NCBI RefSeq assembly: GCF_001677475.2
Contig: NZ_CP015229.1
Reading direction: 5' to 3' (one strand)
DNA length: 64,000 nucleotides
DNA from: Escherichia coli
GTDB taxonomy: Bacteria > Pseudomonadota > Gammaproteobacteria > Enterobacterales > Enterobacteriaceae
Shown: in pieces, positions 18,001 to 27,000 of the stretch
Layout: each line of letters begins with the position of its first letter
How positions within the stretch are numbered: the stretch's first letter is position 1
Position numbers: made by a program

Positions 18001-21000
18001 TATCAGAAAGGAAAAAACTTCAAGATACAAATGAAGTTCATACCATAGTTGATAAATTACAAAAACATAATGTCCTTTTTGCCCTCGATGATTTTGGAGT
18101 AGAATATTCTACATTTCATTATTTACAGGATTACTCTGTTGATTTTATTAAGCTGGATAAATCTTTCATCCAACAGTGTGAATCAAATAAAATATCCGAA
18201 GCAATAGTAGATAGTATAGCTATGTTGGCAAAACGATTACATATTAAGGTCGTTGCTGAAGGTATCGAAACTATAGAGCAGGCAAAAGCCATGAAAAATA
18301 AAGGAATAGAATATTTGCAAGGGTATCTTTTTTCACCACCTGTATCTGGAGATGTTTTTATTCATAAATGGATTTTGTCAACCGAAAAAAGGAGCAATTA
18401 GATGTGTGATTCATAGGCATCGTTTCAATTTTCTCAGTCCAAGTTCAAGCTTGTAATTCTGTTCCTGTATATGCTCTTCATTGGGCGATAGTTTGCATGA
18501 ACGGCATCAGAGTATGGTGTTTTCTCAGCAAGTTCAAAGTAGCGTTCCATCGGAGTTTTACCGTTGTGAGCGCTATGAGGACGTTCCCAGTTATAGTAAT
18601 GCTGCCATTCTGCCTGCAGTTCCTTCAGGTCATCAGCAGAAAGATCTACGGTAGCGTAAAACTCAGCTTTGTCTGTCTTTTGGGAACGTTCAACCTTTCC
18701 GTTAAGATGAGGCGACGCTGGCTTATTTGGACGAAACTTGATGCCGTATTCTTTTAATCTTTCCTGCACTTTAACGGCAAAAAATACTCTTCCCCGGTCT
18801 GTCTGAAAGCGCTGTATCGGGAAAGGCATTTCTTCAATAACACAATCAATAAAATCCAGTGTGTTTGCCGCCGTGCGACGAGAGTAGAGCCTCAGGACTC
18901 TGTAGCGAGTGCAATCATCAATAGATGTGTACTGATATAAGCCGGGGCCAATTTTACAGGTATCCATCTGAACCCGATCACCGGTTATTGGGCGCTCTCC
19001 GTTCATGAAAATACGCATAAGCCCGGCGTCAAAGAGCAAATCACCGAAATGGCGTTCAACGGAGCAGGTGTCCGCGATACCGAAGGACTGTGTAGAGCCA
19101 ATAAAGTTGTGCCCTTTAAGTGGAAAAGACTTTAAAGTTGCACTAATTATTCTATTTAACTAAAAAAAACATAAAGTTAAGCACATATAACTCTATGTTT
19201 TTAACAGTATCTGTAGCCCTACTCTTCTGATGCTCATTCCTTTTGAGGCTCTAGACGCCATAAGTTAATATTTCTGAGGCTTGCAGCTTAGGGATACACC
19301 AACCAAAAAACAAATATATATCAATAACATAAGAAATACCTAGTACCTTAAATTAAATGTTCACTGTACCTTTTCCAGCCGCTTGAACAGCGCACGGTAA
19401 AGTGATAGCTTCAAAATATTGTTATCACTTTAGGATCAATCTCATGGCGAATGCTGTGGTTGCAGGCTGGCAGGGACACGATTATCAGGCTCGCTTATTC
19501 TGGTATTACGCATCTTTTTTGAAAGACAGAACCCGGTCAGATGTCATTGAAGTGTCTTATGAAGCAGATGCGCCTAAGTCATTTGATGACGTAGTTGCTA
19601 AATATCATCCTCCAAGACCTGGCTATGGTTCCGAACGCATCGCCGCAGAGTACTTCCAGATCAAATACCATGTTGTCTCAGGCGGTCGATTCGGATATGA
19701 AGATTTGGTTGATCCCGAATTCATCAACGCACAATCCAAATCTTTACTTCAACGCCTCAAAGAAGCAAAAACCATAGCCGTTCCAAATTCTTCTTTTATT
19801 CTGGTTACTACCGATACTATCCGAGATAACGACCAGCTGGGAAAAATCCACCAAAACACTGATGGTTCTCTGGATTTGGGTAAACTTGCCGTTGGCAAAA
19901 CCGACAGAAGCGAGATGGGCAAAGTCAGGAAGCTGTGGCGCGACCATCTTGAGCTGAGTAATGATGAAGACCTTTATGAGATCCTCCGGGGATTTCGAAT
20001 TGAGGCGCCTGCGTCTTCACTCGAGCGTCTGCGTACAAATGCCAATATGCAGTTCAAATTTGTCGGAATGATGCCTTGTGAAACCAACTCCGATTTTCGT
20101 TATGACGGCCTGATACGAACACTGAAAGGTCAGGGCAAATATCAATTTAACCGTACTCAGTTTGAAGAGATGTGTGTAGCGGAAAGGCTATTACAATCAT
20201 GCCCTGTGGAGGAGTACAACGCTGTAGCACTTCGCTCGTACAGAGATGGCCCATTTGAAACACTGGACGCATCTCCGGAAAATACCCTTTCACTCCTGCA
20301 ATATTTTGAGGGAAGGTTTCCTGCTCCAGGCATAGAGTGGATGGACTCAATTCAACCTGTCGTAACAGACTTCCTTGAAAAAATCAGGCAATCTCAAAGG
20401 GGAAAAAGAATCAGACTTTTTCTCGATGCGCACACCTCTATTGCTATGCTTGCCGGTAAATGTCTCGGAGCTAAGTCAAACGTAACTGTTGAGTTAGTGC
20501 AGAAAGGAAAGGCTTCAACGTCAGTATGGAACGCCAATGACGGCGGCGAAATTCGCCCCACAACTGTCAGTACAGAGACTCCTGGTGAAGGCCATGACGT
20601 TGCAATTGTCCTCAGTATTACAAGGAATGCCCTGGCAGACGCACGGGATTATATTGCGGCAAACCTGCCAGGTGTCGGTCGAATTTTACACTTTGTCCCC
20701 GAAAACGGATTTGGTTTTCAGTCGATAACAAGCGGTGCCCATGCATCCGACGTTGCGGAAACTGTTGCACGAGCTTTCGGTGAAGCCCGGGTTCCATTTG
20801 GGGCAACAGTACATATTTTTAGTGCAGCCCCTAATGCCGTTAATTTCTTTGTCGGGCAGCAAACAGACTATATGGGAACCTGCGTTTTTTACGAGTATGA
20901 CTTTAATCGTCAGGTCCATGCCTCATATGCTCCTTCATTCAGGGTTTAATCACGATGGAACTTAATCCGCAATTTAATGAATTCTTAACAAAGATCAGAC

Positions 21001-24000: not shown

Positions 24001-27000
24001 CGAAAAGAACCTCGTAAAAAGTATTCGAATGAATTCAAACTTCGTATGGTTGAACTGGCATCACAACCCGGTGCTTGTGTGGCTCAGATTGCACGAGAAA
24101 ATGGCGTCAATGATAATGTTATTTTCAAATGGCTCAGACTCTGGCAAAACGAAGGGCGTATATCACGGCGTCTTCCGGTGACAACCACTTCTGATGCAGG
24201 CCTTGAATTATTACCTGTAGAGATAACCTCTGATGAGCCGAAAGAACCGATGGCTGCTCTTACTCCGCCCTTATCCACTCAGACTACTGTCAGTGCCAGC
24301 TCCTGCAAGGTGGAGTTCCGTCACGGTAACATGACGCTGGAAAATCCTTCACCAGAGCTGCTCACTGTATTGATTCGTGAACTGACCGGGAGGGGAAGAT
24401 GATCTCACTCCCATCCGGTACCCGTATCTGGCTCGTTGCCGGGATAACCGATATGCGTAAGTCTTTCAACGGGCTGGGTGAACAGGTACAGCATGTGTTA
24501 AATGTTAATCCCTTCTCCGGTCACCTGTTTATCTTCCGTGGCCGACGGGGTGACACCGTTAAAATTCTTTGGGCTGATGCTGATGGTCTGTGCCTGTTCA
24601 CCAAACGCCTGGAGGAAGGCCAGTTTATCTGGCCTGCGGTGCGTGACGGTAAGGTATCCATTACCCGCTCGCAACTGGCAATGCTCCTCGATAAGCTGGA
24701 CTGGCGTCAGCCAAAAACATCCCGCCTTAACGCCCTGACAATGTTGTAAAAAACGCCTGGCCGCATTATAAAAACGGCCATGAGTCAGAAATACCTCATT
24801 CGCATTGCAGAACTGGAAAGCCAGCTCCGTCAGAAAGACCAGCAACTGAGTCTGGTTGAAGAGACGGAGGCCTTCCTGCGCTCTGCACTGGCACGTGCCG
24901 AAGAAAAGATCGAAGAAGATGAACGGGAAATAGAACATCTGCGGGCTCAGATAGAAAAACTGCGCCGGATGCTGTTCGGTACCCGTTCTGAAAAACTGCG
25001 TCGTGAAGTTGAACAGGCTGAGGCCCTGCTGAAACAACGCGAACAGGACAGCGATCGTTACAGTGGGCGGGAAGACGATCCACAGGTTCCCCGCCAGTTG
25101 CGACAGTCGCGCCATCGTCGTCCGTTACCGGCACACCTTCCCCGTGAAATACACCGTCTGGAGTCTGAAGAAAGTTGTTGCCCGGAATGTGGCGGCGAGC
25201 TGGATTATCTGGGGGAAGTCAGTACTGAGCAGCTGGAACTGGTGAGCAGCGCCCTGAAAGTGATCCGCACAGAACGGGTAAAAAAAGCCTGTACAAAATG
25301 TGACTGCATCATTGAAGCACCGGCGCCGTCCCGCCCGATAGAGCGTGGTATCGCGGGCCCCGGATTACTTGCCCGCGTGTTAACGGGAAAATACTGCGAA
25401 CACCTGCCACTGTATCGTCAGAGTGAAATCTTTGCCCGACAGGGTGTCGAACTGAGCCGTGCATTACTCTCCAACTGGGTTGACGCGTGCTGCCAGTTAA
25501 TGATGCCGCTGAATGATGCCCTGTACCGTTATGTGATGAATACCCGCAAGCTTCACACTGACGACACACCGGTAAAGGTACTGGCACCGGGCTTGAAAAA
25601 GACGAAAACAGGGCGCATCTGGACGTATGTCCGGGATGATCGCAATGCGGGTTCGTCATCTCCTCCGGCGGTCTGGTTCGCGTACTCACCGAACCGGCAG
25701 GGGAAACACCCGGAGCAACACCTCCGCCCCTTCCGGGGTATCCTGCAGGCGGATGCGTTCACAGGTTATGACAGGCTGTTCAGTGCAGAACGTGAAGGTG
25801 GTGCGCTGACAGAAGTTGCGTGCTGGGCCCATGCCCGGAGAAAAATCCACGATGTATACATCAGCAGCAAAAGTGCGACGGCAGAAGAAGCCCTGAAGCG
25901 AATCAGTGAACTGTACGCCATCGAGGATGAAATACGGGGATTACCAGAGTCAGAGCGTCTTGCAGTCAGACAGCAGCGAAGCAAAGCGTTACTGACGTCG
26001 CTGCATGAATGGATGGTGGAGAAGAATGGCACGCTGTCGAAAAAATCCAGACTGGGCGAAGCGTTCAGCTATGTACTGAATCAGTGGGACGCCCTCTGTT
26101 ATTACAGTGATGACGGACTGGCGGAGACGGACAATAACACAGCGGAAAGAGCGCTTCGTGCAGTCTGTCTTGGAAAGAAAAATTACGTGTTCTTCGGTAG
26201 CGATCACGGTGGCGAGCGTGGTGCACTGCTATACGGGCTGATCGGCACCTGCCGTCTGAACGGTATCGATCCGGAAGCGTATCTGCGCCATATTCTGAGC
26301 GTACTGCCGGAATGGCCCTCCAACCGTGTTGACGAACTCCTGCCATGGAACGTGGTTCTCACCAATAAATAAGCGTCAATACGGTGCTCCGTTGACGCTT
26401 ACTGAATATTAAGTATGTGACATTTTCCTGCGTAAGCGCAGAGTATACAGCCAATCTCAGTTCCTCTTCACTGCAGCAAATGATTGATGAATGTATCAAA
26501 GCAGGTACGAATGAAACCGGAGGTATTTTAATAGGCTCTTACAGTGAAGACGGTTCTACCGCTTTTATTGTGGAAGCCACAGCAAGGCCCGATGACTCCC
26601 TTGTCGGAAGAACGACATTTCAGCGCGGTGTAAAGGGGCTGAAATCTTTGCTCGATTCCCGCTGGAAAACAGGGCAGTACTATGTTGGTGAGTGGCATTT
26701 CCATCCAGGAGGTTCTTCAGAACCCAGCCCTGACGATTTTGTGTCAATGAAAAACATCTCATCAAATCCTAATTACCAATGTCGGGAACCTGTGATGATC
26801 ATTCTAGGTGGTGATCCGTCAGGGGCATACACTCTTTGCGCCAATGTATTCCCTCGCGGTAAACCACCTATAAGGCTCTCTCAGGAATGAGAATTATGAA
26901 GGAAAATCTTTCCTGAACCTGAAAACCGTTACCGAAAATGGCCACACGAAATTGATGTAAATTGCGGGTAAATTTTAGGCGCCACAGTAAGAATATCATT

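What the first reader, a model, noticed from the sequence alone, without database searches (positions are those of the whole stretch)
19444..26890. Type II CBASS anti-phage operon carried as transposon cargo
Four co-oriented genes with overlapping or tight junctions encode a ~500-aa effector, a CD-NTase with the GS...DxD motif, a Cap2 E1/E2 fusion with a ThiF-type Rossmann motif, and a Cap3 JAB protein (HxHx7Sx2D). Gene order matches capV-dncV-cap2-cap3 in Vibrio. The effector is not a patatin, TIR or HNH type by visible motifs; Cap4-like nuclease-SAVED is inferred from size and architecture only.
Basis: partly seen in the sequence, partly recalled or inferred. Interest (0 to 1): 0.75.

Follow-up and report, generated by a model that had tools for sequence, protein, structure and literature searches.

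The report
IS-split CBASS operon on Tn7-like transposon

Summary
All four genes are real. They are orthologues of the characterised E. cloacae type II CBASS: Cap4 (SAVED nuclease, 19444-20949), CdnD (20955-22100, 80.6% identical to the cAAG synthase EcCdnD), Cap2 (22097-23932) and Cap3 (26417-26890). The effector guess (Cap4) and the "transposon cargo" claim both hold. The operon lies inside a 32,135-bp Tn7-like element (6290-38424) inserted at the 3' end of yhiN with a 5-bp duplication (GCAAT). The same element sits on Salmonella IncHI1B plasmids with a different duplication (CCACC).

The claim of "overlapping or tight junctions" is wrong for cap2-cap3. A 2,505-bp IS66-family element (23898-26402, 8-bp duplication TGAATATT) sits exactly on the cap2-stop/cap3-start overlap. 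It adds an 11-residue tail to Cap2 and removes cap3's start codon. Other E. coli assemblies carry the uninterrupted operon at 100% nucleotide identity.

By analogy with published cap3 deletions, cyclase-to-nuclease signalling and Cap2 priming probably survive, with Cap3 antagonism lost or reduced. This was not tested.

Verdict: already known biology. The strain-specific IS hit is a minor curiosity. Interest is low.

The parts
6285..6289 (.). Left copy of the 5-bp target-site duplication GCAAT of the Tn7-like transposon
   Evidence: The same pentamer lies at 38425-38429. Joining 6040-6289 to 38430-38680 gives a full-length single-piece match in 3,592 E. coli genomes.
6290..6392 (+). Left end (L1) of the Tn7-like transposon. 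It starts TGTGTAGAACCAATAAAGTTGTATCC and has repeated AAAGTTG-type TnsB-site-like motifs.
   Evidence: It forms an inverted repeat with 38398-38424. Motif scan: 5 matches against 0.6 expected. Homology to the Salmonella plasmid copy starts exactly at 6290.
19089..19192 (+). Second, internal left-end copy (L2), about 90% identical to L1 over the first 60 bp. It has no matching duplication and is a vestige of an earlier tandem or nested element. CBASS starts 355 bp to its right.
   Evidence: It is also present inside the plasmid copy.
19444..20949 (+). cap4: effector with an N-terminal PD-(D/E)xK-type endonuclease and a C-terminal SAVED sensor (501 aa)
   Evidence: PADLOC SAVED_PDDEXK 1.7e-195 and NCBIfam SAVED. 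Pfam SAVED at residues 309-500. 54.7% identical to E. cloacae Cap4 7yib over the full length, with FDDV and the QIK lysine K74 conserved.
20955..22100 (+). cdnD: CD-NTase (381 aa)
   Evidence: 80.6% identical to EcCdnD (7ljl, 7d48; 'cyclic AMP-AMP-GMP synthase') and 86.1% to 7ljm. D69, D71, D121, Q210, Y250, D296, V304 and R307 are conserved (residues from PMC8096243). The C-terminal KPAEPQKTGRFA is identical to the Cap2 substrate peptide.
22097..23932 (+). cap2: E2-linker-E1 fusion. Native residues 1-600 are encoded by 22097-23896. Residues 601-611 (CKRKPTAVCSH) are read from the IS66 left end. TTG start overlaps the cdnD stop.
   Evidence: PDB 7to3_A (600 aa) aligns 1-600 at 69.7% identity; catalytic C109 and C548 are present. 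The restored junction gives ...ERQPYEY*.
23841..23897 (+). Severed 5' stub of cap3. It holds both candidate start codons: ATG 23841 (the 178-aa annotation) and ATG 23889 (MNIK..., the start judged real for the E. cloacae orthologue). It now runs into the IS and stops.
   Evidence: The Ledvina et al. preprint states that the first 16 annotated residues of EcCap3 are not a true start.
23890..23897 (.). Left copy of the 8-bp target duplication TGAATATT made by the IS66-family element
   Evidence: Sister loci align to the window in two blocks that overlap by exactly these 8 bp.
23898..26402 (+). IS66-family insertion sequence, 2,505 bp. Imperfect terminal inverted repeats start GTAAGCGT. tnpA 23983-24402, tnpB 24399-24749, tnpC 24780-26372.
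   Evidence: NCBIfam IS66 TnpA, TnpB and transposase. 99.4-99.9% identical copies occur in many E. coli chromosomes and plasmids, with match limits 23898-26402. Inverted repeats.
26403..26410 (.). Right copy of the 8-bp duplication TGAATATT
26411..26890 (+). cap3 body (JAB/MPN isopeptidase). The catalytic core is intact (NETGG Glu, HFH...S..D). The native ATG is now CTG at 26402-26404. The first canonical in-frame start is GTG 26417, with no obvious Shine-Dalgarno sequence.
   Evidence: PADLOC JAB 5.4e-77. 100% identical to P0001 over the shared part. Reading frame analysis; motif.
31331..32272 (-). Second, weak TniQ-family gene of the transposon
   Evidence: Pfam TniQ E=1.7e-4.
32273..33844 (-). 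tnsD (TniQ + TnsD domains)
   Evidence: Precomputed Pfam PF06527 and PF15978 on the identical gene in sister loci. The RefSeq name is 'TnsD family Tn7-like transposition protein'.
33869..35314 (-). tnsC-like AAA+ ATPase
   Evidence: Pfam TniB/AAA_22.
35311..37437 (-). tnsB transposase
   Evidence: Pfam HTH_TnsB. The RefSeq name is 'transposase'.
37424..38278 (-). tnsA endonuclease
   Evidence: The RefSeq name is 'TnsA endonuclease N-terminal domain-containing protein' on the 99.9% identical copy.
38300..38424 (-). Right end of the Tn7-like transposon (reverse complement TGTTCAAAAACAATAAAGTTGTGCCC...). It supplies the last four codons and the stop of yhiN.
   Evidence: E. coli backbone homology starts at 38425. 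yhiN stays 400 aa, with its C-terminus changed from AKSS to VQKQ.
38425..38429 (.). Right copy of the 5-bp duplication GCAAT

Best explanation
The region is a type II CBASS anti-phage operon of the Enterobacter cloacae type (cap4-cdnD-cap2-cap3). It is cargo of a roughly 30-kb Tn7-like transposon that inserts at the 3' end of yhiN (the site described for Tn6230).

Expected mechanism, by orthology:
1. On phage infection CdnD makes a cyclic trinucleotide, most likely 3'3'3'-cAAG.
2. The SAVED domain of Cap4 binds it.
3. Cap4's N-terminal endonuclease is switched on and degrades DNA, aborting the infection.
4. Cap2 (an E1/E2 fusion) conjugates the CdnD C-terminus to a target and thereby primes it.
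5. Cap3 (JAB isopeptidase) removes the conjugate and damps the system.

In this genome an IS66-family element has inserted exactly on the 8 bp where the cap2 stop and the cap3 start overlap. cap4, cdnD and the 600 native codons of cap2 are untouched. Cap2 gains an 11-residue IS-encoded tail. cap3 has lost its start codon, its ribosome-binding context and its translational coupling to cap2.

The most likely state is a system that still signals and kills, with Cap3 antagonism lost or strongly reduced.

Shown here: gene identities, conserved catalytic residues, the IS insertion and its duplication, the transposon boundaries, and mobility to a plasmid.

Inferred: the nucleotide product, expression levels, and that defence is retained.
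For: Gene identities:
- Full-length, very strong matches to PADLOC CBASS models and to solved E. cloacae proteins.
- Identities are CdnD 80.6%, Cap2 69.7% and Cap4 54.7%.
- Conserved residues: D69/D71/D121 and the nucleotide-contact residues of CdnD, C109/C548 of Cap2, K74 of Cap4, and the JAB motif of Cap3.
- The CdnD C-terminus is identical to the peptide seen in the Cap2 E1 site.

IS insertion:
- The window equals sister E. coli loci at 99.94-99.99% identity, plus 2,505 bp and an 8-bp duplication.
- All four genes are 100% identical at nucleotide level to the uninterrupted operons in L002, L004, L006 and L009.
- The IS-fused 611-aa Cap2 is on record on a single contig. The intact Cap3 is indexed in 656 blocks. 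The insertion is therefore recent and rare.

Cargo:
- Tn7-like ends, tnsABCD and a GCAAT duplication.
- An empty site in 3,592 genomes.
- The same element lies on the IncHI1B plasmid NZ_CP039559.1, with homology limits exactly 6290 and 38424 and a CCACC duplication.

Literature:
- Tn6230 occupies the yhiN-yhiM hotspot in E. coli (PMC10121019; PMC11406308).
- Cap3 is dispensable for resistance, and its overexpression antagonises defence (bioRxiv 10.1101/2022.03.31.486616).
- EcCdnD makes cAAG, which activates Cap4 (PMC8096243).
Against: - No expression or phage data exist for this locus.
- The Cap3-dispensability experiment cited was done with the V. cholerae system, not this one.
- The 11-residue tail sits on a C-terminus that can reach the E1 adenylation site. 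In the published crystals a 3-residue linker plus 12 residues fused there occupies that site. The tail could therefore interfere with Cap2, which is required for defence.
- Cap4 is only 54.7% identical to EcCap4, so ligand specificity is not proven.
- Pfam finds no DUF4297 domain in the N-terminal half.
- The promoter and terminator scan was uninformative.
- cap3 might still be translated at a low level from GTG 26417 on read-through transcripts, because the IS is co-oriented.
- Independent disruptions of cap4 in sister strains suggest the operon may be under relaxed or negative selection in this lineage.
Confidence: 0.8

Rival explanations
1. The IS66 insertion has effectively killed the system. 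The Cap2 tail blocks or destabilises the E1 domain, so CdnD is no longer primed and the operon is a decaying remnant that gives no phage defence.
For: - Cap2 is required for resistance.
- The Cap2 C-terminus is within reach of the adenylation site (fusion constructs).
- Sister strains show independent inactivating events in cap4: an IS3 in L008 and a +1 frameshift in L007.
- Six complete E. coli genomes have lost the whole CBASS block next to an IS3.
- Together these suggest the operon is often lost.
Against: - All 600 native Cap2 residues and both catalytic cysteines are intact.
- C-terminal fusions to the Cap2 E1 domain fold and crystallise.
- cap4 and cdnD are 100% identical to intact alleles.
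- The insertion is recent, so no secondary decay is visible.
Confidence: 0.2
2. One reading: an intact, tightly coupled four-gene capV-dncV-like operon, expressed as one unit.
Against: - A 2,505-bp IS66-family element with three ORFs and an 8-bp duplication separates cap2 from cap3.
- The cap3 ATG is destroyed.
Confidence: 0.01
3. The CBASS block is not cargo of the transposon that moved. It was a later acquisition into a fixed chromosomal island, for example brought by the internal left end L2 or by flanking IS elements.
For: - L2 at 19089 lies directly upstream of cap4 and has no duplication of its own.
- IS481, IS256 and IS3 debris flank the block.
- Six E. coli genomes carry the island without the block.
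Against: - The Salmonella plasmid copy contains L1, the tib genes, L2, CBASS and tnsABCD together. Homology ends exactly at L1 and R, and there is a new 5-bp duplication. CBASS was therefore on board when the whole unit transposed.
- In the six genomes without it, an IS3 sits exactly at the deletion site and cuts the Xre antitoxin gene, which points to secondary loss.
- L2 probably records how CBASS first joined (a tandem or nested element), but that is history and not the present state.
Confidence: 0.1

Closest known systems
Enterobacter cloacae type II CBASS (Cap4-CdnD02-Cap2-Cap3; PDB 7ljl/7d48, 7to3, 7yia/7yib)
   Same: Same four genes in the same order. CdnD is 80.6% identical, Cap2 69.7% and Cap4 54.7%. 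All named catalytic and nucleotide-contact residues are conserved. The CdnD C-terminal peptide KPAEPQKTGRFA is identical. Cap2 has the same length (600 aa) in the native state.
   Different: Here an IS66-family element separates cap2 and cap3, Cap2 carries 11 extra residues, and cap3 lacks its start codon. Cap4 is the most diverged component. The host is E. coli and the operon rides a Tn7-like transposon.
Uninterrupted allele of the same operon in other E. coli assemblies (e.g. GCA_014787205.1, GCA_026801325.1) and on Salmonella IncHI1B plasmids (NZ_CP039559.1; proteins WP_053265776.1, WP_053265775.1, WP_053265774.1, WP_077816315.1)
   Same: 100% nucleotide identity over cap4, cdnD, the native part of cap2 and the cap3 body. 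Same flanking genes and same transposon.
   Different: Those copies have the native 59-nt cap2/cap3 overlap (as annotated) and no IS66. Several carry an IS3 at window position 18887 instead.
Vibrio cholerae CBASS (capV-dncV-cap2-cap3)
   Same: Same type II architecture, and the same Cap2 priming and Cap3 antagonism logic. It is the source of the cap3-deletion phenotype used here.
   Different: The effector is the patatin-like phospholipase CapV and the signal is 3'3'-cGAMP. The cyclase belongs to a different CD-NTase clade.
Tn6230-type Tn7-like transposons at the yhiN-yhiM hotspot (hotspot #3 of Hochhauser et al. 2023); defence cargo in Tn7-like elements (Benler et al. 2021, cited there)
   Same: Insertion at the 3' end of yhiN with the tnsA-proximal end next to the target gene, tnsABCD plus a second TniQ-like gene, a 5-bp duplication, and defence genes as cargo.
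   Different: The Tns proteins were not compared with the Tn6230 reference sequence. This element has two left ends. It also carries the tib adhesin/invasin locus together with CBASS.

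Membership tests
Type II CBASS | CD-NTase (SMODS) cyclase with GS...DxD...D catalytic residues | tested here: met
   PADLOC cyclase 1.5e-160; precomputed Pfam SMODS; PDB 7ljl 1e-216; G52 S53 D69 D71 D121 present.
Type II CBASS | Cap2 E1/E2 fusion with both catalytic cysteines | tested here: met
   PADLOC E1-E2 3e-241; aligned 1-600 to 7to3_A; C109 and C548 present. It carries an extra 11-aa IS-encoded tail.
Type II CBASS | Cap3 JAB/MPN isopeptidase gene | tested here: met
   PADLOC JAB 5.4e-77; the Glu of NETGG and HxHx7Sx2D are present. The coding body is intact, but the native start codon is lost.
Type II CBASS | The four genes form one contiguous operon | tested here: not met
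   In this window cap2 and cap3 are split by the 2,505-bp IS66-family element. The feature is met in sister loci that are 100% identical.
Type II CBASS | Protects against phage | not testable with these tools
   Needs plaque assays.
Cap4 (endonuclease-SAVED effector) | C-terminal SAVED domain | tested here: met
   Pfam PF18145 at 309-500, E=4.5e-31; NCBIfam NF033611, 151 bits against a cutoff of 33.
Cap4 (endonuclease-SAVED effector) | N-terminal PD-(D/E)xK-type nuclease homologous to EcCap4, with the active-site lysine | tested here: met
   Full-length alignment to 7yib. FDDV and QIK (K74) are conserved. That K74 is the active-site lysine is recalled from Lowey et al. 2020, not read here. PADLOC models 'SAVED_PDDEXK' and 'Effector endonuclease' cover residues 1-501.
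   Pfam reports only SAVED, with nothing at E<=10 for residues 1-300. This is a limit of the Pfam model. Homology to EcCap4 itself is unambiguous.
CD-NTase clade D, cAAG synthase (EcCdnD02-like) | Close sequence relationship and conserved nucleotide-contact residues | tested here: met
   80.6% identity. D69, D71, D121, Q210, Y250, D296, V304 and R307 are all conserved.
CD-NTase clade D, cAAG synthase (EcCdnD02-like) | Product is 3'3'3'-cAAG | not testable with these tools
   Needs in vitro synthesis and LC-MS.
IS66 family insertion sequence | tnpA-tnpB-tnpC gene set, terminal inverted repeats, 8-bp target duplication | tested here: met
   NCBIfam IS66 TnpA 8e-23, TnpB 4.6e-35, transposase 3.8e-134. 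Inverted repeats start GTAAGCGT, with 22 of 30 positions matching. TGAATATT is duplicated.
Tn7-like transposon (Tn6230 type) | tnsA, tnsB, tnsC and tnsD/tniQ genes | tested here: met
   RefSeq names and precomputed Pfam hits on the 99.9% identical copies. A second TniQ-like gene is weak.
Tn7-like transposon (Tn6230 type) | TGT...ACA ends with repeated TnsB-site motifs and a 5-bp target duplication | tested here: met
   The duplication is GCAAT in the chromosome and CCACC on the plasmid. The empty site was confirmed.
Tn7-like transposon (Tn6230 type) | Attachment site at the 3' end of yhiN | tested here: met
   The right end abuts yhiN and supplies its last four codons. Literature.
Tn7-like transposon (Tn6230 type) | Sequence similarity of the Tns proteins to the Tn6230 reference | not tested
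   No reference sequence was at hand. Assignment rests on the attachment site and the gene set.

The most novel reading that the evidence does not exclude
The IS66 insertion is not a random hit. It is a selected event that creates a natural cap3-null, permanently primed CBASS. Landing on the 8 bp shared by the cap2 stop and the cap3 start removes only the negative regulator and leaves cyclase, effector and Cap2 intact, giving stronger or broader phage defence. IS traffic at this junction would then act as a tuning switch for CBASS sensitivity.
Probability: 0.08. Interest if true: 0.35.

Novelty: already known. Interest (0 to 1): 0.15.

Why it matters
It matters little as a discovery. The system type, its mechanism, its structures and the transposon hotspot are all published, and the identical operon is already in public databases.

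There are two small points of value:
- The window offers a natural allele in which only Cap3 is uncoupled and Cap2 is C-terminally extended. Compared with its 100%-identical intact sister allele, it could test how Cap3 balances defence against self-toxicity.
- The same roughly 30-kb Tn7-like element carries both an adhesin/invasin locus (tib) and CBASS. It has clean target duplications in an E. coli chromosome and on a conjugative Salmonella IncHI1B plasmid, which is a tidy example of recent inter-genus movement of a defence-plus-virulence package.

Tried and rejected
- Megablast of the CBASS DNA against 5,426 complete E. coli genomes found nothing. I first wondered whether the window was not E. 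coli. That idea was rejected: the backbone matches E. coli at 97.8-99.2% and identical operons occur in E. coli draft assemblies.
- Pfam search for DUF4297 in Cap4 gave no hit. The nuclease assignment rests instead on EcCap4 homology and the PADLOC models.
- The promoter and terminator scan of 19000-27300 found fewer sites than in shuffles and is uninformative.
- Rfam scan of the whole transposon gave no match. The tRNA scan found none in the window.
- A literature search for the PDB code 7LJM returned only irrelevant papers. The source organism of 7ljm is therefore not stated. My recollection is a Salmonella CdnD, unverified.
- I considered L2-R (19089-38424) as the mobile unit. This was rejected as the present unit, because L2 has no matching duplication (AGGAC against GCAAT) and the plasmid copy spans L1-R.
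- NCBIfam gave no hits for TnsA, TnsB or TnsD. RefSeq names and precomputed Pfam hits were used instead.
- The first python call failed on a file-name assumption and was redone.

Full report
OBSERVATION

- PADLOC matches cover the full length of each protein: SAVED_PDDEXK / endonuclease effector (E=1.7e-195), oligonucleotide cyclase (1.5e-160), E1-E2 (3e-241) and JAB (5.4e-77).
- NCBIfam adds a SAVED domain and ThiF-type adenylyltransferase similarity.
- The same ORF map shows three further co-oriented ORFs between cap2 and cap3. NCBIfam identifies them as IS66 TnpA, TnpB and transposase.

So two junctions are tight: 5 nt between cap4 and cdnD, and a 4-nt overlap between cdnD and cap2. The third is 2.5 kb wide.

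THE IS66 INSERTION

Megablast of the region against complete E. coli genomes hit only the IS. Match limits were query 4599-7103, which is window 23898-26402, at up to 99.9% identity in many chromosomes and plasmids.

- The element is 2,505 bp with imperfect inverted repeats starting GTAAGCGT. It is flanked by a direct repeat TGAATATT at 23890-23897 and 26403-26410.
- Removing the IS and one repeat copy restores ...CCC TAT GAA TAT TAA for cap2. That ends the protein at ...ERQPYEY, 600 aa, the same length as E. cloacae Cap2 in 7to3.
- It also restores ATG AAT ATT AAG TAT GTG... for cap3 (MNIKYVTF...).
- A search with the reconstructed Cap3 found a 100%-identical protein, P0001. It is annotated as 178 aa and indexed in 656 blocks of public assemblies.
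- The loci that encode it align to the window at 99.94-99.99% in two blocks that overlap by exactly the 8-bp repeat.
- cap4, cdnD, the native part of cap2 and the cap3 body are 100% identical at nucleotide level to L002, L004, L006 and L009.
- The IS-fused 611-aa Cap2 is on record on one contig only (GCA_002516285.1). The insertion is therefore recent and rare.

Consequences that can be read from the sequence:

- Cap2 gains the tail CKRKPTAVCSH.
- Both possible cap3 start codons (ATG 23841 and ATG 23889) stay on the left of the IS and now open a 20- or 36-codon dead-end ORF.
- The cap3 body is preceded by CTG in place of ATG. Its first canonical start is GTG 26417, with no evident Shine-Dalgarno sequence.
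- For the E. cloacae orthologue, Ledvina et al. state that the first 16 annotated residues are not a true start. That makes the ATG at 23889, the one the duplication cuts through, the likely native start.

WHAT THE SYSTEM IS

A sequence search of the PDB shows close orthology to the E. cloacae CBASS.

- CdnD is 80.6% identical to the 'cyclic AMP-AMP-GMP synthase' EcCdnD (7ljl/7d48) and 86.1% identical to 7ljm.
- Cap2 is 69.7% identical to 7to3_A over residues 1-600. It has cysteines at positions 109 and 548, where the deposited mutant has alanines.
- Cap4 is 54.7% identical to 7yib over its whole length, with FDDV and the QIK lysine (K74) conserved.
- All the metal-binding and nucleotide-contact residues of EcCdnD named by Ko et al. 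(PMC8096243) are conserved.
- The last 12 residues of CdnD are identical to the peptide that occupies the Cap2 adenylation site.
The proposed DUF4297 check itself is negative in Pfam, which I take as a limit of that model.

MECHANISM

The following is by orthology, not tested here.

1. CdnD makes cAAG.
2. cAAG binds the SAVED domain of Cap4 and activates its DNA endonuclease (PMC8096243).
3. Cap2 conjugates the CdnD C-terminus and primes the cyclase.
4. Cap3 reverses this.

In the V. cholerae system Cap2 is required for resistance. Cap3 is dispensable, and its overexpression antagonises defence. I therefore expect the allele here to remain active with reduced Cap3 antagonism.

The main uncertainty is the Cap2 tail. 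Published constructs fuse a short linker and a 12-residue peptide to Cap2 residue 600, and that peptide reaches the E1 site. An 11-residue tail could therefore interfere.

TRANSPOSON CARGO

To the right of CBASS, on the minus strand, lie a weak TniQ-like gene, tnsD, tnsC, tnsB and tnsA. Beyond them is yhiN.

- An inverted-repeat search found that 38398-38424 pairs with two sites, 6290-6316 and 19088-19115. Both are left ends with repeated AAAGTTG-type motifs.
- GCAAT flanks 6290 and 38424.
- Joining the outer flanks with a single GCAAT gives a full-length, single-piece match in 3,592 E. coli genomes at up to 99.2%. 6290-38424 (32,135 bp) is therefore an insertion with a 5-bp duplication at the 3' end of yhiN.
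- The transposon end replaces the last four yhiN codons (AKSS to VQKQ) and keeps the protein at 400 aa.
- The same element occurs on five conjugative roughly 246-kb Salmonella enterica plasmids; the one examined in detail is IncHI1B.
- On NZ_CP039559.1 the homology begins exactly at 6290 and ends exactly at 38424. It is flanked by CCACC on both sides and has an intact cap2-cap3 junction.
- CBASS was therefore on board when the whole unit moved. The second left end at 19089 is internal and vestigial.
- This site and element type are known: Tn6230 at the yhiN-yhiM hotspot #3 of E. coli (PMC10121019; PMC11406308).

DISTRIBUTION

No complete RefSeq E. coli genome carries the CBASS DNA. Six carry the same island with window 19071-29967 replaced by an IS3 that also cuts the Xre antitoxin gene. 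That looks like secondary loss.

Among the sister loci sampled, L008 has an IS3 inside cap4 and L007 has a +1 frameshift in cap4. L005 has many single-base indels that may be assembly errors.

VERDICT

The genes and the cargo context are confirmed. The 'tight operon' description is wrong at one junction.

The system is a close orthologue of a fully characterised one, in a documented hotspot, on a documented transposon type, and the identical operon is already widely deposited. I rate novelty as already known and interest as low.

The IS-split allele is a convenient natural experiment on Cap3 function, but there is no evidence that it is more than a chance insertion.

Noticed in passing
window 9376-18401: The same Tn7-like transposon carries a tib-type adhesin/invasin locus. 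It comprises a tyrosine invertase (9376-10038), CaiF/GrlA and LuxR regulators (10396-11483), a heptosyltransferase (11805-13025), the TibA autotransporter (13018-16740), a small LuxR/GerE HTH gene (16805-17176) and an EAL phosphodiesterase (17592-18401). Virulence and defence cargo therefore travel together. The ETEC H10407 tib locus is only about 93% identical.
   Followed up: partly
window 19089-19192 versus 6290-6392: The element has two left ends and one right end. The internal left end sits 355 bp upstream of cap4 and abuts a 5'-truncated IS481-family transposase gene (18434-19039). No remnant of a second right end was found. This suggests an older tandem or nested Tn7-like insertion brought in CBASS and its partner end was later lost.
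   Followed up: partly
window 38409-38429: The transposon inserts inside the last codons of yhiN. Its right end supplies four replacement codons and a stop, so yhiN remains exactly 400 aa (AKSS* becomes VQKQ*).
   Followed up: yes
window 28567-30210: An Xre/ParS-type antitoxin gene (29764-30210, minus strand) has no RES toxin partner. Fragmented IS256-family (Transposase_mut) debris (28567-29667) lies where the toxin gene would be expected. It looks like an orphan antitoxin.
   Followed up: no
window 27216-27887 (minus strand): A 223-aa ORF convergent with cap3 has hydrophobic stretches and no hit in Pfam, NCBIfam or PADLOC at the thresholds used. It is conserved in every copy of the element. 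Function unknown.
   Followed up: partly
L008 4291-7109; L007 5603-7109; L001 10476-11785: This CBASS has been disrupted or lost independently in other strains. There is an IS3 inside cap4 (L008), a +1 A frameshift in cap4 at window-equivalent 20395 (L007), and an IS3-associated deletion of the whole block (window 19071-29967) in six complete E. coli genomes.
   Followed up: partly
window 6393-7613 and 7732-7757: An IS3-family element with 40-nt imperfect inverted repeats sits directly after the transposon's left end. A solitary IS66-type terminal repeat fragment lies at 7732-7757. RefSeq annotates the IS3 copy as a pseudogene in the sister genome.
   Followed up: no
window 38300-63000: The chromosomal backbone to the right (yhiN, pitA, uspAB, dtpB, prlC, gor, chuA region) is at most 97.8% identical to any of 5,426 complete E. 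coli genomes over 24.7 kb. The yhiN attachment region is 99.2% identical to phylogroup-F-like strains IAI39 and CE10. The backbone is somewhat divergent or mosaic. This was not pursued.
   Followed up: no
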